This document shows positions 26,490 through 52,362 of a stretch of 64,000 nucleotides of DNA, in pieces. Under the pieces are notes generated by a model. It worked only from the letters and a program-made list of their open reading frames with translations. It did no database searches and was not told the DNA's origin. How positions within the stretch are numbered: position 1 is the stretch's first letter; every line of letters begins with the position of its first letter. Source of the DNA: Eledone cirrhosa. Its lineage: Eukaryota. The DNA lies in NCBI GenBank assembly GCA_964016885.1, contig OZ024750.1:25296001-25360000 (forward strand). The letters are read 5' to 3'. The translations under genes and the position numbers were made by a program.

Positions 26490-26790
26490 TCCCGTAACTC
26501 CTGGTAGAGTCATAGGGGTTCCATATTGACATACAGTGTTTCTTGGGCAGAGCCCATTCCACTCCAGACCTGAGTACAGCAGATTTCTTCCAGAGAAAGA
26601 TAGAAAGTGGGAGAGAGGAAATGAGAAAGAATCCACCCCAGTACTAGACTGGTACTTTTCTTTTTATCGACCTCCAAAGGATGAAAGGCAAAGTTGACCT
26701 TGACTGGATTTTAACTCAGAGAGCAGAGAGCTGGAACGAATACCATAAAGCATTCTATCTGACATTCTTAACGACTGCCAATTCCCCACC
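26490..26790 (-). mobile_element. SINE family 1-related element with an extended tail
   Basis: Inverted homolog at 27895-28140 and a third copy at ~39393-39670. Confidence 0.75.
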
Positions 26791-27894
26791 TATGGACATC
26801 ATTAGGTTAAGTGTATATGTCTAACACAATTTGTTGATATCTCAATTCCTTCCAAATGATACAACACAGTGTGTTTGATGAGATACAAACTCTTCATTAG
26901 TTTCTGCCTGGTGGTAAAATGTGTAACTAATAGTTATATGTAACTAATAGTTATACAGTATACAATTATGAGCTTTGAAATACATGTCTTTTTCGAGACA
27001 AGATAACTTTTACTTGGTTGTTAGAAATAACAGCTAAATTTCCTTGAAAAGGGGAGCAGACACACTGAGTAATCTAGTTGTAGGTTTTTAATGACTAAGA
27101 GAAGGGTGAGGTAGTCATGGCTGTAACACCTTTGATAATATACTTTGTCAGGAATGAACTAGGGGTAAATGAACAATGTTGTCATTTGATCATCCGTCGA
27201 AATAGATTTGATAATTTCTATTCACTTCATTGATAATTACATAATATTCAAATGAGATAATTCTTAATTTTAATTTTATCTATTTATTCTTCAGATCAGT
27301 TGAAGATGTGAAGTAGACATGAATGACTTGAGGGATTCATTTTCCGATGACTTTCATCTATTGCAGATGTTGCAAAAATATTCATAGAACTGTCCATCTG
27401 AGACACCTTGCTTCAATATATTATTGATATATCTCTTTTATCTTTGTTATTTAAACACCTTGTTTCTATATATTACTGAAATACATCTTATATCGTAATG
27501 GTGGACAGCCAACGGGTTAAATCAATTTGACATGTTTCTCTTGTAAGTTGTTGATGATATATGTTAAAAAGAAAATTGTACGTGGACATGAATAAATGTA
27601 AGATGGTAGGTTTCGTGCTGTTAATGTAATAATTGCTCATGCGTGTGTTTTAATAATTGTTCAAGCGTATGTTTCTAAAATGTTGTATGTTATGATGGTG
27701 TATTGTTCAGAAACATCATATAATAAGTTACATAGTCAACTTTTATAGATACAAGTTAAACCTTGTTAATTCTAGAATCACCGGTCTAACAGCTTCGATA
27801 TAATTTGAACCCCGCTTATTGGTCGAATTACTGGTCTAGCAGCTTCAATACAAGTTAAAACTTGCTAATTCTAAAATCACTAGACTAGTAGCTT

Positions 27895-28140
27895 TTAGTT
27901 CAAATCCCGCTGAGGTCAACTTCGTTTTTCATCCTTTTGAGGTTGATAAAAAAAGTACCAGTCTAGTACTGGGGTGGATTCTTTCTCATTTCCTCTCTCT
28001 CTCTCACGTTCTATCTTTCTCTGGAAGAAATCTGCTGTACTCAGACCTGGAGAGGGATGGGCTCTGCTAGGCTTAAAATTTCCAAGAAACCCAGTATGTC
28101 GCTATGATGTCTCTACGGTTCCACTAAGAATTACGGGTCT
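27895..28140 (+). mobile_element. SINE family 1-related element with an extended tail
   Basis: GTTCAAATCCCGCTGAGGTCAAC...AGTACCAGTCTAGTACTGGGGTGGATTCTTTCTCATTTCC... Confidence 0.75.
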
Positions 28141-28346
28141 AGTAACAGAAACAACTGAAGATGCCATCGCCTCTCCTCTAAAATGTGGTATATTGATGAT
28201 AGTGTTGTGTGCAGAATCGATAACATATGATGTTAAGAAAGAAAGAGAGAAAATAGTGAAAATGTTTTGACAGAGGTTGACACAGAAAATAAGAAGGTTA
28301 TAACAACCAGAAACATTAACAGATAATAGCCAACATTGATTTAGAT

Positions 28347-29886
28347 CACAGGTTCTCAACCCATTTGTCCCTTGAAATCACGAAACGCCCCCCCCCCCCC
28401 TCCCTCCTTTCCATTTTTCAATATACTACTGATTTTTATATCAGTAGATTACTAAAAAATTGATTAACAATATTCCAAAGATGTGTGTATTATCTGATTA
28501 TGTGTTGTATGTGGTCCTAGATGTGTGTATTATCTGATTATGTGTTGTATGTGGTCCTAGATGTGTGTATTATCTGATTATGTGTTGTATGTGGTCCTAG
28601 ATGTGTGTATTATCTGATTATGTGTTGTATGTGGTCCTAGATGTGTGTATTATCTGATTATGTGTTGTATGTGGTCCTAGATGTGTGTATTATCTGATTA
28701 TGTGTTGTATGTGGTCCTAGATGTGTGTATTATCTGATTATGTGTTGTATGTGGTCCTAGATGTGTGTATTATCTGATTATGTGTTGTATGTGGTCCTAG
28801 ATGTGTGTATTATCTGATTATGTGTTGTATGTGGTCCTAGATGTGTGTATTATCTGATTATGTGTTGTATGTGGTCCTAGATGTGTGTATTATCTGATTA
28901 TGTGTTGTATGTGGTCCTAGATGTGTGTATTATCTGATTATGTGTTGTATGTGGTCCTAGATATGTGTATTATCTGATTATGTGTTGTATGTGGTCCTAG
29001 ATGTGTGTATTATCTGATTATGTGTTGTATGTGGTCCTAGATGTGTGTATTATCTGATTATGTGTTGTATGTGGTCCTAGATGTGTGTATTATCTGATTA
29101 TGTGTTGTATGTGGTCCTAGATATGTGTATTATCTGATTATGTGTTGTATGTGGTCCTAGATGTGTGTATTATCTGATTATGTGTTGTATGTGGTCCTAG
29201 ATGTGTGTATTATCTGATTATGTGTTGTATGTGGTCCTAGATGTGTGTATTATCTGATTATGTGTTGCATGTGGTCCTAGATGTGTGTATTATCTGATTA
29301 TGTGTTGTATGTGGTCCTAGATGTGTGTATTATCTGATTATGTGTTGTATGTGGTCCTAGATGTGTGTGCTACTCGCTTCTGTTTTTTCTTTTCTTTTTT
29401 TTATTTGTAATATTATTTATACAATAGGGAATAAAATAGATCTACAGAAGTGTTAACTCGTTGCGGTTGAGTCAATAATTTCAGACATGAAATACATTGT
29501 TATCGGTGAAGGAAAGATAAGATTCTAATTGGCTGTGCTCAAAGTGTCCTTGACCTGTTGACTGTGGGTTTTTCCATTTTTAGGATCTCAATTACCGGTT
29601 AACGTCTCAATTACCAGACATGCCTGCACACCTGCGGTCAGACTATAGTTATGCTGTCTGCAAGCTCATTCAAATGCATTCACACAGGCTGTCTCAAAGA
29701 CATACAAATATGGCTTATAAAACTTACCAAAATAAAGGCCTTCCAGCGCCCCCTAACCCCTCCCCCCTCCCCCAGCTCCAAACGCCCCCCCCCCCCCCCC
29801 CCCAACGCGACCTTGCTCCCAAACGCCCCCCCTGGAGTTCTGAAACGCTCCCCGGGGGTGCATATGCCCCCCGTTGAGAACCTTTG
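28347..29886 (+). mobile_element. Non-autonomous hAT (Charlie-like) DNA transposon carrying a satellite
   Basis: TIRs CACAGGTTCTCAAC / GTTGAGAACCTTTG and a perfect 8-bp TSD ATTTAGAT at 28339-28346 and 29887-29894. Confidence 0.85.
28481..29368. repeat. 40-bp near-perfect tandem repeat (~22 copies)
   Basis: ATGTGTGTATTATCTGATTATGTGTTGTATGTGGTCCTAG, with only three variant positions seen. Confidence 0.98.
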
Positions 29887-30258
29887 ATTTAGATTGACAG
29901 GAGAATCAAATATATAGTGGATTTACAATAAAAGTTAAGGTGAATATATGGTTGCTGTTATTTCTAGTTTTGGGGCAATATTCCACAGGTAGCTATGGAC
30001 ATATCTTCTTTTCCCTTCAGCTCACCTATTTTTATTAATCTATTTATTTTTATGTCAGTCCAGTAAACTAATCATGTAACAGTGTATACAATATATATAT
30101 CTATATATCTATATCTATATCTATATCTATATATATATATTATAATGGCTTCTACAGGACTAGAATTGTTTCATTCAAAGAAAATCATCAGGAAAGGTAT
30201 ATATATAGAATAAGAAAATACAAAGTAGTTTCAGATGTTAAAGTCCTTTATTGATAAG

Positions 30259-30333
30259 GCTGTGATACATATTTCAATGACGACAGTGGCCACACAATTC
30301 CGCTTAACCTGTGCCATGATCTCATCAGACAGC
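30259..30333 (-). ncRNA. Minimal type-I hammerhead ribozyme
   Basis: Minus strand: GCTGT-CTGATGA-GATCATGGCA...TGTCGTCATT-GAAA-TATGTA-TC|ACAGC. Stem I is 5 bp, with an AUC cleavage triplet. Confidence 0.65.
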
Positions 30334-31269
30334 TTCTTACATAATAAGGTTACGTTCTTGAGGTAATCCAAATTAAAACAAGGAAACGGACCAAGATGAT
30401 GTTCTTGAAGCCTTTTCCCCTGTTCCTTTGTGAGCCCTAATTCACCTTTGTGAGCCCTAATTCACCTTTGTGAGCCCCAATTCACCTTTGTGCAAGCGCA
30501 ATATATATATATTTATATTTATAATGTAAACTGCTTCAATACAGATGTTTGACTATGAAATCTACTCCAAAAAGTTGAGCGTATTAGCTTCAAGAGACGG
30601 GAAAAGATGGACAGTAAATAAATTGGTTTTGGTAATCCCCCGTTTTCAGATCACAAAGGACTGCCATTTTGTTTAGTGAGTGAAAATGACAATTTGTTTT
30701 TTTTTAAATTTTATCAGCATAATTCTTTATCTATATTGACTAAAAATGTATTTCTGCCAAATAAACATAAAAGAGTTATGAGAAAACAAATCAGGTGGGG
30801 ACAATACACCATGTTGTCTTATATATATATATATATAACAAAGGAATTGTGGTAAGGAACCAGATGGACTATATATATATATATATCATCATCATCATTT
30901 TACGTCCGCTTTTCCCTGCTTGCAAGGGTGGGACGGGAACAATGCAAAATTGATAGTGGATTTTGAAATAAATTGAAGGCTGTTGCTGTGTTACTTGTTA
31001 TTTCATTTACCTATATCCGACAGGTAAATATATATATATATATATATATATACACAAATTTTAGTACAGCATTAACGAAGCTTTAGGCTGCGGCTAAGCT
31101 AACGAATGCAAATTCGGAATGTAGCTTTAGCACTCGGTGGAGAATAATACCCCAGAGTAATAACAATACGTTTAGACAGCTTTGCAAATCAAATATAGCG
31201 GTCGGCAGTCCAGCTGCATTGCCATAGCAACGAAAAAGACTGGACTCAGGAACAGATTTATATATATGT

Positions 31270-31301
<32 letters not shown>

Positions 31302-31312
31302 ATATATATATG

Positions 31313-31358
<46 letters not shown>

Positions 31359-31367
31359 ATATATATA

Positions 31368-31470
<103 letters not shown>

Positions 31471-32255
31471 CAATATATTAACAAATGGAAACTATATTTA
31501 TAAAACCATATTTATTTCATTATACATATTTCAAGGGCCACCTGAGCAAACTATGGTGCGCTTTCATCAGATAAAATATAATATAGGTTAGTTTTATAAA
31601 TAAATATTGACATACCCTTAAAAAATGCAACCATTCTGGTTGGAATCTCCTGGATTTTTTAAGGGTATGTCAATATTTATTTATAAAACTAACCTATATT
31701 ATATTTTATCTGATGAAAGCGCACCATAGTTTGCTTAGGTGGCCCTTGAAATATGTATAATGAAATAAATGTGGTTTTATAAATATAGTTTCCATTTGTT
31801 AATATATTGTATATATATATGGAGGCACATGGCTTAGTGGTTAGAGCATTGACCTTGCAATCGAAAGGTTGTGAGTTCAATTCTCAGACCGGGTGATGTG
31901 TTGTTTCCTTGAGCAAGACACTTTATTTCACATTGCTCCAGTTTACTCAGCTGTAGAAATGAGATGATAGAGACTGGGGTCCATATCATTCCACTGCAAA
32001 GTGGTCGTGGAGGTGCCATGGCAAAAAAGCACCCAGCACTCACTGTAAATTAGGTTGGTGTTAGGAAGGGCATCCAGCTGTAGAAATCAAGCCAGAATCA
32101 GTTCCCGTCCCACCCTTGCAAGCAGGGAAAAGTGGACGTAAAATGATGATGATGATGATGATGATGATTTACTCCAATAATTTGTTGAGTGCTTTATATC
32201 AGTTATAAAAATATTTTGCTTGTTGTATCCCAACAAATTAAATATAACCTCTACA
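31471..32255. mobile_element. Family A fold-back element, interrupted by a SINE
   Basis: Inverted arms at 31471-31625 and 31655-31810, with hammerheads at 31513-31578 (-) and 31702-31767 (+). The remainder (32168-32255) is the reverse complement of 17727-17812. Confidence 0.8.
31821..32168 (+). mobile_element. tRNA-CORE SINE with RTE-related 3' half, family 2, full length
   Basis: tRNA head (A-box TGGCTTAGTGG, B-box GAGTTCAATTC), CORE-like CCTTGAGCAAGACACTTTATTTCACATTGCTCCAGTTTACTCAGCTGTAGAAATG, GGAAGGGCATCCAGCTGTAGAAA block, and (GAT)n tail. Confidence 0.93.
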
Positions 32256-32310
32256 TATATATATATATATTTAATATAGAAATGGCTTCTACAGGACTAG
32301 AACTGTTTCA

Positions 32311-33711
32311 TGGTGTTATGCAGTAATACAGAAGACCCGAGTTCCCACAGGTACAAGTCGAAGATGAAGCATATAGACAATATGTCCCCACCTCTCCCAC
32401 TGCAAAGTGGTCTTGGAGGTGTCATGACAAAAAAAGCACCCAGTACTCATTGTAAATGACCCCTACACCACCCTCCCACACCCCCTTACTTTGTAAAGTT
32501 ATGTTGGCATCACAAAAACATCCAGCCCACACTGTAAAGTGGTTGTGTAGGTGTCACAACAAAAAGCACACAGCCTATACTGTAAAGTAGTCTTGTAGGA
32601 GACACTGCAAAAAGCGCCCAGTCAACACTAAAGTGGTTGTGTAGGAAACACTGCAAAAAGCATCCAGCCTACACTGAAAAGAGGTTGTGTAGGAGACACT
32701 GCAAAAAGCACCCAGCCCAGACTGTAAAGTGGTCGTATAAGAGACACTGCAAAAAGCACCCAACCCACACTGTAAAGTGGTCGTGTAGGGGACACTGCAA
32801 AAAGCGCCCAGCCTACACTGAAAAGTGGTCGTGTAGGTGTCACAACAAAAAGCACCCAGCCCACACTGTAAAGTGGTCGTGTAGGTGTCACAACAAAAAG
32901 CAGCCAGCACACACTGTAAAGTGGTCGTGTAGGTATCACAACAAAAAGCAGCCAGCACACACTATAAAGTGGTCGTGTAGGTGTCACAACAAAAAGCACC
33001 CAGCCCACACTGTAAAGTGGTTGTTTAGGTGTCACAACTAAAAGCAGCCAGCCCACATTGTAAAGTGGTCGTGTAGGTGTCACAACAAAAAGCACACAGC
33101 CTACACTGTAAAGTGGTCGTGTAGGTGTCACAACAAAAAGCACCCAGCACACATTGTAAAGTGGTCGTGTAGGTGTCACAACAAAAAGCAGCCAGCACAC
33201 ACTGTAAAGTGGTCGTGTAGGAGACACTGCAAAAAGCGCCTAGCACACACTGTAAAGATGTCGTGTAGGTGTCACAACAAAAAGCAGCCAGCACACACTG
33301 TAAAGTGGTCGTGTAGGTGTCACAACAAAAAGCACCCAGCACACACTGTAAAGTGGTCGTGTAGGTGTCACAACAAAAAGCAGCCAGCACACACTGTAAA
33401 GTGGTCGTGTAGGAGACACTGGAAAAAGCTCCCAGCACACATTGTAAAGTGGTCGTGTAAGAGACACTGGAAAAAGCGCCCAGCACACACTGTAAAGTGG
33501 TCGTGTAGGAGACACTGGAAAAAGCGCCCAGCACACACTGTAAATGTAGTTGGCGTTAGGAAGGGCATCTAACTAGAAATCCTGCCAGAAACAGCCCTAC
33601 ATGAGCAAAACACGGTCACCTGACCCAACTTGCCTCAAATGGGACAAACATGTCAAACCCATGCTAGCGTGGAAAATAGATGTTAAACGATGATGATGAT
33701 GATGATGATGA
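32311..33711 (+). mobile_element. RTE 3' fragment with an internally expanded 48-bp minisatellite
   Basis: The start matches the RTE ORF end (GCAGTAATACAGAAGACCC, cf. 17259). About 22 units of 48 bp lie at ~32490-33545, followed by the GGAAGGGCATC block and a (GAT)n tail. Confidence 0.85.
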
Positions 33712-34026
33712 TATGTAAATACATCATACAAAAGAGAGAGTATATGGAGGATTTTTCTGTTGCTGATGAGATAAATATTGTGGTAAACACAATAATACAA
33801 ATAACACACAAAACACATGTATATACACATATAGAAAGGGATTGATAAACACACATGTGTATGTGCACACATACACACGGACAAACATATATCTCTTTTC
33901 TCTTCTCTGCTGCTCTGTTTGGCTCTTTATCATATTCTTTCTCTTTTGTATATATATATATATATATGTTGATTTAAAACTTCACTATTCACAATGTTTT
34001 TTAACCTTCATATCATGTATCCCTAT

Positions 34027-34091
34027 TTTATCTGATGAAAACGCAGATGTCATCTCATGATGATATTTGTTTTTGAAATGCGCATAATAAA
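34027..34091 (+). ncRNA. Minimal type-I hammerhead ribozyme
   Basis: TTTAT-CTGATGA-[16-position stem II, 15 paired including G-U, loop TCAT]-GAAA-TGCGCA-TA|ATAAA. Stem III is the palindrome ATGCGCAT. Confidence 0.78.
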
Positions 34092-34115
34092 CTCTTTTAA
34101 CCATCTTTTGATCTT

Positions 34116-34153
<38 letters not shown>

Positions 34154-34676
34154 TTCATATATATGTATATTTATATATACATACATATGTATACATATAT
34201 AAATATACACATGTTCAAATATATATCTATATTTATATATACATATATAAATATACACATATATTCATATATATGATTATACACACACACACACACACAT
34301 ATATATATACACATATTCATATACATGTATATTTATATATATACATATAAACATATAAACACACACATACATACATACATACATACATGCATACATACAT
34401 ACATACATACATACATACATACATACCTACATACATACATACCTACATACATACATACATACATATGTATACAATGACAGTTTAAAATACTTCATAATAG
34501 TTTCTATAAGACTTGTAAGTAAATATTAAAAAAATGTTTCAATTAAAAAAAAATAAATAAATAAAATAAAAAAACCGGGGTGGCAGGTAAAAAAACAAAA
34601 CAAAATAAAAACAAAAAATAAAACCAATAGATAATGAATTAAAATATATTATTTAGAAAATAATAAGTCTACTTAC

Positions 34677-34698
34677 GTTGAGAATAAAGTGCAGTAAT
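34677..34698 (-). other. Putative non-coding first exon (~22 nt)
   Basis: Begins at an Inr-like GC(A)TT, 30 nt downstream of TATAAA, and ends at CAAC|GTAAGT. Confidence 0.62.
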
Positions 34699-34780
34699 GC
34701 AGTGTGTGTTAATAGCAGTGCATTTATAGAGATGCTGTTTGCGTCAATCATTGATGACGTCAGCACAAGCAACCAATCAA
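34699..34780 (-). promoter_or_regulatory. Pol II promoter: CCAAT box, full CRE, half CRE, TATA
   Basis: CCAAT at 34773-34777, palindromic TGACGTCA at 34755-34762, TGACG at 34746-34742 and TATAAA at 34728-34723, all in canonical order and spacing on the minus strand. Confidence 0.75.
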
Positions 34781-34950
34781 AACAACTACAAGCTATTGTA
34801 ATATCAACTGAGAGTTGATGGCTTTGCGTGGTTTCACGGTAGGATTAGCTTTGGAGCAAACAATTTAGTTTTTTTCTCAGTTTTTTTTTGTTTTCCCCGT
34901 AAATATCAAACGTTTTGTTGATAATTTTGTTGCTAACTTAGTGTGTGCCC

Positions 34951-42286: not shown

Positions 42287-44428
42287 CAACAAGTATATAG
42301 ACAGGTACCACATAAATGCAAGCCATACTCAAGCAAAGTGGGGTTATTACAAGATAGAGCTGAGAAAAACAAGTATATAGACAGGCACCACATAAATGCA
42401 AGCCATACTCAAGCAAAGTGGGGTTATTACAAGATAGAGCTGAGTACAACAAGTATATAGACAGGCACCACATAAATGCAAGCCATACTCAAGCAAAGTG
42501 GGGTTATTACAAGATAGAGCTGAGTACAACAAGTATATAGACAGGTACCACATAAATGCAAGCCATACTCAAGCAAAGTGGGGTTATTACAAGATAGAGC
42601 TGAGTACAACAAGTATATAGACAGGCACCACATAAATGCAAGCCATACTCAAGCAAAGTGGGGTTATTACAAGATAGAGCTGAGTACAACAAGTATATAG
42701 ACAGGCACCACATAAATGCAAGCCATACTCAAGCAAAGTGGGGTTATTACAAGATAGAGCTGAGTACAACAAGTATATAGACAGGCACCACATAAATGCA
42801 AGCCATACTCAAGCAAAGTGGGGTTATTACAAGATAGAGCTGAGTACAACAAGTATATAGACAGGTACCACATAGATGCAAGCCATACTCAAGCAAAGTG
42901 GGGTTATTACAAGATAGAGCTGAGTACAAGTATATAGACAGGCACCACATAAATGCAAGCCATACTCAAGCAAAGTGGGGTTATTACAAGATAGAGCTGA
43001 GTACAACAAGTATATAGACAGGTACCACATAGATGCAAGCCATACTCAAGCAAAGTGGGGTTATTACAAGATAGAGCTGAGTACAAGTATATAGACAGGC
43101 ACCACATAAATGCAAGCCATACTCAAGCAAAGTGGGGTTATTACAAGATAGAGCTGAGTACAACAAGTATATAGACAGGTACCACATAGATGCAAGCCAT
43201 ACTCAAGCAAAGTGGGGTTATTACAAGATAGAGCTGAGTACAAGTATATAGACAGGCACCACATAAATGCAAGCCATACTCAAGCAAAGTGGGGTTATTA
43301 CAAGATAGAGCTGAGTACAGCAAGTATATAGATAGACACCACATAAATGCAAGCCATACTCAAGCAAAGTGGGGTTATTACAAGATAGAGCTGAGTACAA
43401 CAAGTATATAGACAGGTACCACATAAATGCAAGCCATACTCAAGCAAAGTGGGGTTATTACAAGATAGAGCTGAGCACAACAAGTATATAGACAGGCACC
43501 ACATAAATGCAAGCCATACTCAAGCAAAGTGGGGTTATTACAAGATAGAGCTGAGTACAACAAGTATATAGACAGGTACCACATAAATGCAAGCCATACT
43601 CAAGCAAAGTGGGGTTATTTCAAGATAGAGCTGAGTACAACAAGTATATAGACAGGTACCACATAAATGCAAGCCATACTCAAGCAAAGTGGGGTTATTA
43701 CAAGATAGAGATGAATACAACAAGTATATAGACAGACACCACATAAATGCAAGCCATACTCAAGCAAAGTGGGGTTATTACAAGATAGAGATGAATACAA
43801 CAAGTATATAGACAGGTACCACATAAATGCAAGCCATACTCAAGCAAAGTGGGGTTATTACAAGATAGAGCTGAGTACAAGTATATAGACAGGCACCACA
43901 TAAATGCAAGCCATACTCAAGCAAAGTGGGGTTATTACAAGATAGAGCTGAGTACAAGTATATAGACAGACACCACATAAATGCAAGCCATACTCAAGCA
44001 AAGTGGGGTTATTACAAGATAGAGCTGAGTACAACAAGTATATAGACAGGTACCACATAAATGCAAGCCATACTCAAGCAAAGTGGGGTTATTACAAGAT
44101 AGAGCTGAGTACAACAAGTATATAGACAGGTACCACATAAATGCAAGCCATACTCAAGCAAAGTGGGGTTATTACAAGATAGAGCTGAGTACAACACGTA
44201 TATAGACAGGTACCACATAAATGCAAGCCATACTCAAGCAAAGTGGGGTTATTACAAGATAGAGATGAATACAACAAGTATATAGACAGACACCACATAA
44301 ATGCAAGCCATACTCAAGTAAAGTGGGGTTATTACAAGATAGAGCTGAGTAGAACAAGTATATAGACAGGCACCACATAAATGCAAGCCATAGTCAAGCA
44401 AAGTGGGGTTATTACAAGATAGAGCTGA
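42287..44428. repeat. 80/77-bp tandem satellite (~27 copies)
   Basis: CAACAAGTATATAGACAGG(C/T)ACCACATAAATGCAAGCCATACTCAAGCAAAGTGGGGTTATTACAAGATAGAGCTGAGTA units. Confidence 0.98.
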
Positions 44429-50876: not shown

Positions 50877-51714
50877 TACGGAATACAGTAGTACCCCACC
50901 ACTGAAGTAGGTTTACCATGTATATGATTTTATATTTTCTATATACTTCGTGATGCTTATACAAGAATATTAATTTTCAAAATAAAAATAGTTATCAACT
51001 TAAAATAAGATTAAATAAATAAATACATATAAAAATGAAATAAATAATGTTTTAATTCACTACAGCTACATTTGGCTAAAACCATTTATAAAATCATTTA
51101 AACATCATAAATATAGTATTGAAGAAATTGACGATTTGAGGAAATGGAAGGCAAAGAAATTGAGTAATGGATTGTTTATTTTTCTGTAAGTATATTCTAG
51201 GAAAACATTACTTCGTACAGGCGTTGTAAGCATTCGTTCTTCATTCAAAAGTCTCTCTCTCTCTCTCGTGGTGAGCGTATTTCCAGAATTTCAGACGCAT
51301 GGAATCTATTTCGAGGGGAAGAAGAAGACTGATTAATGCGCTCAATATAGAAACAGCGATACCACGGATAGAGAGAAATATGAGCTATATAAATAATTGG
51401 ATGTATAAATTGACAGAATTTCAACTGTTAGGAGAAATAAGATTTCTTCACACAATTATAAAAATCTATTCAATATTTGAAGGTTTTCTTTGTCACTCCT
51501 AATCGAGATTACTTCAGCAAATTTTAGTTCAATACAATCATTCCTAACAAAACAGAATTGCTACAAAGAGAAAATGAAATCACCACACAATAAGAAATAA
51601 ATTGTAAATAACAACAAAGGCAACAAGTTCTCCTTCGATTACATTGACTGATTGTAATACCTGAAAGTTTAGTTTTCTAAATACGTTTCTTTCTATTTGC
51701 AGTTAAATTAAGGT

Positions 51715-52362
51715 AGCAGACGATATTGGGACATATGCTGCATAGCAGACGATATGGGAGCATTGGAAGACATAGCAGACGATATGGGGACATATGCTGC
51801 ATAGCAGACGATATGGGAACATTGGAAGACATAGTAGACGATATGGGGACATATGCTGCATAGTAGACGATATGGGAGCATTGGTAGACATAGCAGACGA
51901 TATGGGGAAATATGAGGCATAGCAGACGATATGGGGAAATTAGAAGACATAGCAGACGATATAGGACCAATTGAGGCATGACAGACGATATTGGGATATA
52001 TGAGGCATACCAGATGATATGGGAACATTGGAAGGTATAGCAGACGAAATGAGGACATTGGAAGGTATAGCAGACGAAATAAGGCCAAATGACGCATAGC
52101 AGACGATATGGGGAAATATGAGGCATACCAGACGATATGGGAACATTGGAAGGTATATCAGACGATATGAGGACATATGCGGCATAGCAGACGATATGGG
52201 AACATTGGAAGATATAATAGATGATATGGGGATATATGAGGCATACCAGACGATATGGCAACATTGGAAGGTATAGCAGACGATATGGGAAGATTGGAAG
52301 GCATAGCATACGATATGAGGACATTTGAGTCATCACAGACAATATGAGGATATTTGGAAGGT
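51715..52362. repeat. 24-30-bp degenerate minisatellite
   Basis: CATAGCAGACGATATGGG(G/A) core with alternating spacers. Confidence 0.9.

What the first reader, a model, noticed from the sequence alone, without database searches (positions are those of the whole stretch)
34671..34780. Hidden cAMP-responsive promoter and ~22-nt micro first exon, 21.7 kb from the CDS
The minus strand reads ATTGG..TGACGTCA..TGACGCAA..TATAAA-(~24 nt)-GCATT..CAAC|GTAAGT: CCAAT box, full CRE, half CRE, TATA, initiator at +30 and a consensus donor, all within 110 bp. The only host CDS downstream on this strand begins immediately after a splice acceptor and so needs such an exon. CRE-plus-TATA promoters are well established for activity-regulated neuropeptide genes. 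So short an exon would typically be missed in annotation.
Basis: partly seen in the sequence, partly recalled or inferred. Interest (0 to 1): 0.7.

Follow-up and report, generated by a model that had tools for sequence, protein, structure and literature searches.

The report
CRE/TATA promoter of octopus orphan prohormone
A compact cluster of standard promoter signals and a tiny non-coding first exon, 21.7 kb upstream, likely drives an unnamed octopus gene predicted to encode a secreted hormone precursor; the layout is an ordinary one, and cAMP control is untested.

Summary
All motifs are at the stated places. The downstream CDS (12996-12331, minus strand, 221 aa, ATG directly after an acceptor) is the ortholog of uncharacterized Octopus LOC106871087/LOC115231982. 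The best new evidence is an Octopus vulgaris gene model (CAI9718020.1) with a 50-residue N-terminal extension. Its last 26 residues map to window 34754-34677 and end exactly at the proposed donor (E 3.7e-5; at least 15 of 75 bases mismatched, next best 25 among about 128,000 positions). So another species' annotation already joins this donor to this ATG, and its residues are compatible with the half CRE and TATA box. Not shown: the start site, the 22-nt length, any junction read, and cAMP response. That model runs through the TATA box, and its residues cannot encode the full CRE contiguously. The protein looks like an octopod-restricted prohormone: hydrophobic N-terminus, 8-Cys helical domain, conserved dibasic sites, and C-terminal peptides 97-100% conserved. 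It has only a weak fold resemblance to CHH/ITP-type peptides (Z 4.2). Verdict: real promoter and first exon of a known kind, on an unstudied gene.

The parts
34773..34777 (-). CCAAT box in reverse orientation (ATTGG), -79 to -75 from predicted +1
   Evidence: sequence; common word (95 copies on both strands of the window), so weak alone
34755..34762 (.). full palindromic CRE TGACGTCA, -64 to -57
   Evidence: only copy in the window; conservation in O. vulgaris unresolved
34739..34746 (-). half CRE TGACGCAA, -48 to -41 (also reads as a CRE/C-EBP hybrid site, recalled)
   Evidence: O. vulgaris residues at this place are compatible with its first 7 bases but not the 8th
34723..34728 (-). TATA box TATAAA, -30 to -25
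   Evidence: O. vulgaris residues compatible
34696..34700 (-). initiator-like GCATT; predicted +1 at 34698
   Evidence: spacing from TATA only; start site untested; the exact word is not compatible with the three O. vulgaris residues tested
34677..34698 (-). predicted 22-nt non-coding first exon, no ATG
   Evidence: 3' end supported by the O. vulgaris model; 5' end inferred
34677..34754 (-). block that matches the last 26 residues of the O. vulgaris model's N-terminal extension
   Evidence: tblastn E 3.7e-5 within the window; 0 of 300 shuffles as good
34671..34676 (-). consensus splice donor GTAAGT
   Evidence: match to ortholog model ends exactly here
12997..34676 (-). 21,680-nt first intron, rich in satellites and dispersed repeats, with one broken LINE
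12997..13022 (-). pyrimidine tract and CAG acceptor directly before the ATG
12331..12996 (-). single coding exon, 221 aa predicted secreted prohormone: hydrophobic N-terminus, 8-Cys domain (C36-C83), conserved basic sites at 126, 159, 167 and 182-184
11550..12330 (-). probable 3' UTR with AATAAA at 11971, 11732, 11623, 11614 and 11561
   Evidence: contigs of run X4 (kind not on record) cover 11550-11932 and 11960-12975

Best explanation
This is likely the TATA-box core promoter and short non-coding first exon of the octopod gene orthologous to LOC106871087/LOC115231982, predicted to be spliced across a 21,680-nt intron to one coding exon whose ATG follows the acceptor directly. Inferred mechanism: TBP/TFIID on the TATA box fixes initiation near 34698. 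CREB/ATF-family dimers on the CRE and half CRE (57-64 and 41-48 nt upstream), helped by NF-Y on the CCAAT box, would make it signal-inducible. The 22-nt leader is spliced to the ATG. The 221-aa product would enter the secretory pathway and be cut at basic sites into an 8-Cys helical domain, a 13-residue peptide (169-181) and a 37-residue C-terminal peptide (185-221). Shown: motifs, CDS, orthologs, and the match to the ortholog's model ending at the donor. Inferred: start site, exon length, factor binding, inducibility, processing.
For: 1) The last 26 of the 50 extra residues of O. vulgaris CAI9718020.1 map to 34754-34677 and stop at the donor. At least 15 of 75 bases mismatch, next best 25 of about 128,000 positions; 0 of 300 shuffles reached 15; 0 of 200 shuffles matched in a gapped test. 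2) The O. vulgaris annotation used RNA-seq junctions, PASA and EVM (PMC10700109, passages; that this accession comes from it is inferred). 3) The block is 46% identical as protein against 83% for the CDS, as expected for non-coding DNA read in frame; the residues over the half CRE and TATA are unchanged. 4) Canonical spacing; the only TATA+initiator site with a CRE among 285 non-repeat TATA sites. 5) Named models in O. vulgaris/O. sinensis (one shared sequence), O. bimaculoides and Argonauta, and one unnamed record, start at the same Met. 6) Residues 169-182 are 100% and 185-221 are 97% identical to two Octopus orthologs, the spacer only 69%; all 8 Cys are invariant in five sequences. 7) Proximal CRE/TATA promoters are the cAMP- and activity-induced class in mouse neurons (PMC5740062, passages).
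Against: No contig joins the exon to the CDS. The O. vulgaris long model extends through the TATA box to residue 25 and has 24 more residues that match nothing upstream in the window (0 score; 200 of 200 shuffles as good), so an upstream start or exon may exist there. Read contiguously, its residues cannot encode TGACGTCA anywhere, nor a CCAAT box in residues 10-25. Run X4 has two low-depth 151-nt contigs at 34630-34686 (running unspliced into the intron) and 34798-34948, upstream of the predicted start. Full CRE + TATA + donor alone is expected 0.175 times per window. The evidence behind the O. vulgaris model could not be seen.
Confidence: 0.7

Rival explanations
1. The donor is real but the main transcript starts further upstream (a longer exon or an extra exon), so the motifs are a minor or alternative promoter, possibly with an N-terminally extended product like the 271-aa O. 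vulgaris model.
For: The O. vulgaris model runs through the TATA region and has 24 unmatched residues. An in-frame ATG lies at 34751 in an open frame to the donor. Run X4 has a contig at 34798-34948.
Against: The extension is poorly conserved as protein (46% against 83%) and would precede the hydrophobic signal-like N-terminus. The other ortholog models begin at the shared Met. A gene predictor given a junction hint can extend a CDS back to any upstream ATG (inference). The X4 contigs are read-length with depth about 3 and could be one DNA fragment spanning the promoter.
Confidence: 0.15
2. It is the promoter, but the bZIP sites give constitutive, cell-type or stress-linked expression (ATF or C/EBP-ATF heterodimers) rather than cAMP induction; the cells may be glandular rather than neuronal.
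For: TGACGCAA reads as a CRE/C-EBP hybrid site (recalled). CREB binds target promoters constitutively (PMC5740062, passages). Full-CRE conservation is unresolved. Many cephalopod salivary secreted proteins have no homologs outside cephalopods (bioRxiv 10.64898/2026.02.02.703354, passages).
Against: A full CRE 27 nt from a TATA box fits the inducible class. Near-invariant C-terminal peptides suit an endogenous ligand better than a fast-evolving venom protein (inference).
Confidence: 0.25
3. Chance cluster of short motifs unrelated to the CDS.
For: Each motif is short; looser composites give 8 hits in the window; the patterns were post hoc.
Against: The ortholog's model independently ends at this donor in frame with the same Met.
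Confidence: 0.03

Closest known systems
Proximal CRE/TATA promoters (c-fos, Nr4a1, Nr4a2, Dusp1, Ptgs2; PMC5740062, passages)
   Same: Full and half CRE close upstream of a TATA box, within the proximal promoter.
   Different: Those are mouse genes with measured induction and CRTC1 recruitment; here nothing functional is measured and CRE conservation is only partly testable.
Octopus LOC106871087 (O. bimaculoides), LOC115231982 (O. sinensis, Argonauta), CAI9718020.1/CAI9718021.1 (O. vulgaris)
   Same: Orthologous 221-aa protein, 72-83% identical, same Cys pattern and basic sites; CAI9718020.1 uses the same donor.
   Different: All are labelled uncharacterized or hypothetical; CAI9718020.1 treats the promoter-side block as coding. 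Their UTR exons could not be viewed.
Peptide hormone genes with a short non-coding exon 1 and the start codon at the start of exon 2 (general knowledge, recalled)
   Same: Short leader exon, long first intron, precursor in a later exon.
   Different: 22 nt is at the short end; the whole precursor is in one exon; no known family matches the protein.
CHH/ITP superfamily and the derived HAND peptides (Ssm6a, PDB 2mz4; k-Ssm1a, 2m35)
   Same: Small helical Cys-rich secreted domain; C-x2-C and a final C-x8-C spacing; 2m35 is the best natural chain in the wide fold search (Z 4.2, rmsd 3.1, 48 aligned).
   Different: Eight Cys rather than six, adjacent CC in place of C-x3-C, no sequence hit, long C-terminal part with extra peptides; the superfamily is described from Ecdysozoa (PMC7560641, passages).

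Membership tests
Proximal CRE/TATA promoter | [quoted passage not shown] | tested here: met
   CRE 34762-34755, TATA 34728; definition from PMC5740062; the start itself is predicted
Proximal CRE/TATA promoter | CRE conserved between species | tested here: inconclusive
   Only O. vulgaris residues were available: half CRE and TATA compatible, full CRE not encodable contiguously; a splice or indel at residue 24/25 would hide it
Proximal CRE/TATA promoter | Capped transcripts start about 30 nt after the TATA box | not testable with these tools
   Only contigs were available
Proximal CRE/TATA promoter | CREB binding and cAMP induction | not testable with these tools
   Needs reporter or ChIP
Non-coding first exon of this gene | Donor spliced to the acceptor before the ATG | tested here: met
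   By an ortholog's gene model only; no junction read in this species
Peptide prohormone | N-terminal signal peptide, no later transmembrane segment | tested here: met
   Hydropathy peak 2.3-2.5 at residues 13-29, at most 1.2 after residue 40, in five sequences; no dedicated signal-peptide predictor was run
Peptide prohormone | Conserved basic cleavage sites flanking conserved peptides | tested here: met
   Sites at 126, 159, 167, 182-184 in five sequences; peptides 97-100% against spacer 69%
Peptide prohormone | Neural or endocrine expression and processed peptides detected | not testable with these tools
   No tissue-labelled data
CHH/ITP superfamily | Six invariant Cys spaced as in Sco-CHH-L (7, 23, 26, 39, 43, 52) | tested here: not met
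   Eight Cys at 36, 46, 49, 63, 64, 73, 76, 83 against PMC8541221 passage; first six are x9, x2, x13, x0, x8 against x15, x2, x12, x3, x8
CHH/ITP superfamily | Detectable sequence similarity | tested here: not met
   No such Pfam family at E up to 10 for 8 queries; no PDB sequence hit
CHH/ITP superfamily | Helical CHH fold | tested here: inconclusive
   Single-sequence model pLDDT 76; 2m35 Z 4.2 and 2mz4 Z 3.5, tied with designed helical bundles, none at Z 5 or more
CHH/ITP superfamily | Disulfides C1-C5, C2-C4, C3-C6 | not testable with these tools

The most novel reading that the evidence does not exclude
The promoter drives a CREB-inducible, octopod-only prohormone whose N-terminal Cys domain is a CHH/ITP-type fold, a hormone family described so far from Ecdysozoa, fused to a near-invariant 37-residue peptide: a new activity-regulated signalling system of octopuses.
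Probability: 0.12. Interest if true: 0.65.

Novelty: new member of a known kind. Interest (0 to 1): 0.33.

Why it matters
The promoter layout is textbook, so it changes no principle. Its value is practical. It corrects a gene model: the 50-residue extension in O. vulgaris is likely promoter and leader DNA read as protein. It gives an 80-bp cephalopod promoter that can be tested in a reporter. And it flags an uncharacterized, octopod-restricted secreted precursor with strongly conserved predicted peptides as a candidate new neuropeptide or hormone. If inducible, it would be a handle on CREB-dependent gene expression in octopus neurons.

Tried and rejected
No whole genome is held for this window, so copy number and other promoters could not be compared. 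Run search: no RNA holder listed. Run X4 (kind not on record) has a contig ending at 12975, 21 nt inside the CDS, with no loose end, and no cover over 12998-13341 where X1-X3 continue. It also has no cover over 34687-34797. This is one study and contigs only, so none of it is used as evidence on start site or leader length. Family searches gave nothing: Pfam (only sub-threshold zf-UBR, DUF5395, coiled-coil), PDB sequences, and a whole-library HMM search (2 hits, the Argonauta ortholog and a 2400-aa repeat protein judged spurious). Shorter homologs: 0 of 116 candidates. Atlas: best scores 0.79 and 0.88, leads only. The full-length model was poor (pLDDT 43). Foldseek gave no match at E 0.001, and its 3 chains gave no Z of 2 or more. 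A guess that the protein is CCRFamide-like could not be tested; passages read gave no sequence. A guess that the first 24 extension residues come from a repeat or from nearby DNA was not supported. Literature: 0 papers with four locus or accession ids, 0 with four peptide stretches, 0 for octopus+CREB+promoter+start site+neuropeptide, 0; one search listed 16 papers, none on a cephalopod promoter by title. Earlier findings of this scan: none. The sigma-70 scan does not apply to a eukaryote.

Full report
Observation. On the minus strand the window reads, in order: ATTGG (34777-34773), TGACGTCA (34762-34755), TGACGCAA (34746-34739), TATAAA (34728-34723), GCATT (34700-34696) and a GTAAGT donor (34676-34671). 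Taking the A at 34698 as +1 gives a 22-nt exon with no ATG. The only host-like CDS I found downstream on this strand is a 221-codon frame at 12996-12331, whose ATG follows a pyrimidine tract and CAG directly. The intron would be 21,680 nt. Contigs of three runs of one sample carry the promoter sequence with one variant outside the motifs.

Chance. The full CRE occurs once in 64 kb (0.39 expected). Full CRE + TATA + donor is expected 0.175 times per simulated window. Full CRE + half CRE + TATA at this spacing appeared in 0 of 200 simulated windows. Of 285 non-repeat TATAWAW sites, 12 have an initiator-like word 27-33 nt downstream, and only this one also has a CRE. These patterns were written after seeing the site, so they are suggestive only.

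The gene. The CDS has orthologs in Octopus vulgaris/O. sinensis (83%), O. bimaculoides and Argonauta hians (72%), all labelled uncharacterized or hypothetical. An HMM search of 1.84 billion representatives returned only the Argonauta protein and one spurious repeat protein, so at this sensitivity the family is confined to octopods. The protein has a hydrophobic N-terminus and no later hydrophobic segment, eight invariant Cys (36-83), and basic sites at 126, 159, 167 and 182-184 in all five sequences examined. Against two Octopus orthologs, identity is 90% over 1-31, 82% over the Cys domain, 69% over the spacer, 100% over 169-182 and 97% over 185-221. That is the anatomy of a peptide prohormone. 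Expression and processing are untested. Pfam, PDB sequences and the Atlas gave no family.

Independent support for the exon. One cluster member, O. vulgaris CAI9718020.1 (271 aa), has 50 extra residues before the shared Met. Searched against the window, its last 26 residues hit 34754-34677 on the minus strand (46% identity, E 3.7e-5), ending at the last base before the donor. For the last 25 residues at least 15 of 75 bases mismatch, against 25 for the next best of about 128,000 positions. None of 300 shuffles reached 15. So a gene model from another species joins the orthologous donor to the orthologous ATG. The O. vulgaris chromosome-level annotation used STAR/Portcullis junctions, PASA, Augustus, GeneMark and EVM (PMC10700109, passages). 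I infer that this accession comes from it; I could not see the evidence for this model. The block is far less conserved as protein than the CDS, and the residues over the half CRE and the TATA box are unchanged and compatible with both motifs. I read this as promoter and leader DNA translated by a gene predictor that needed a start codon.

Results against, or open. The same model runs through the TATA box. Its first 24 residues match nothing upstream in the window, even with gaps, nor clearly elsewhere. Read contiguously, the extension cannot encode the full CRE, nor a CCAAT box in residues 10-25. The match stops exactly at the edge of the full CRE. The window also has an in-frame ATG at 34751. 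In this species no contig spans the junction. Run X4, whose kind is not on record, covers 11550-11932 and 11960-12975 and has two 151-nt, depth-3 contigs at 34630-34686 and 34798-34948, which may be one unspliced or DNA fragment. These say nothing firm about the start site.

Mechanism. Most likely (0.7) this is the gene's TATA core promoter, with initiation near 34698, a 22-nt leader, and splicing to a single coding exon. My odds by step: donor used 0.9, start within a few bases of 34698 0.7, CREB-dependent cAMP induction 0.55. In mouse neurons, promoters with proximal CRE and TATA are induced by cAMP and depolarisation while CRE/TATA-less ones are not, and CREB binding itself is constitutive (PMC5740062, passages). 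Transfer of that rule to an octopus is inference. Rivals are an upstream main start (0.15), non-cAMP bZIP control or glandular expression (0.25, not exclusive of the promoter reading), and chance (0.03).

The protein's kin. A single-sequence model of residues 32-98 is four short helices, pLDDT 76. Foldseek found nothing. In the wide search of 48,161 chains no hit reached Z 5. The best natural chain was centipede k-Ssm1a (2m35, Z 4.2, rmsd 3.1, 48 aligned), with Ssm6a (2mz4) at Z 3.5, among designed helical bundles of the same score. Ssm6a is named as a CHH-derived HAND peptide (PMC8541221, passages); that 2m35 shares that fold is recalled. The Cys count and spacing differ from CHH, and the superfamily is described from Ecdysozoa (PMC7560641, passages). 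This is a lead, not membership.

Print record. No paper in the library held the four locus or accession ids or four peptide stretches, and none held octopus + CREB + promoter + start site + neuropeptide. The library lacks most subscription papers, including the Sepia neuropeptidome (seen only as a reference). Supplements were not opened; those of the cephalopod venom preprint (10.64898/2026.02.02.703354, passages) are closed and could list this gene. Also seen: PMC8398477 (passages and section 2.7; no precursor described there was recognisably the same) and passages of PMC6158917, PMC5141488, PMC8557429, PMC4888303 and PMC1831778, none informative.

Verdict. The start site and cAMP control remain predictions. 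The architecture is a known kind, and the unstudied gene is the more interesting part. Novelty: new member of a known kind. Interest 0.33.

Noticed in passing
window 14369-17426 (+): Broken LINE (endonuclease, reverse transcriptase and PHD-like pieces in five frames) inside the intron, opposite to the gene.
   Followed up: partly
P0005 (O. vulgaris CAI9718020.1) residues 1-50: Likely mis-annotated N-terminal extension: residues 25-50 correspond to promoter and leader DNA; residues 1-24 have no match in the window.
   Followed up: yes
window 34751-34749 (-): In-frame ATG between the two CREs; a transcript starting upstream would add 25 residues before the signal-like N-terminus.
   Followed up: partly
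window 11905-11989: Fragment of the common ~190-bp dispersed repeat sits in the probable 3' UTR; about 20 copies or fragments of that family occur in the window.
   Followed up: no
window 9215-11187, 28479-29368, 32512-33544, 42287-44428, 51714-52361: Minisatellites of 51, 40, 48, 80 and 59 bp units; the 51-bp array just downstream of the gene carries many TGACG words and inflates the half-CRE count.
   Followed up: no
window 31516-31764, 17861-18147, 56381-56649: Elements matching their own reverse complement (inverted-repeat or MITE-like) in the self-comparison.
   Followed up: no
window 12116: A/G difference in the probable 3' UTR seen in contigs of X2, X3 and X4 but not X1; present in runs that cover introns too, so an allele rather than editing.
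   Followed up: no
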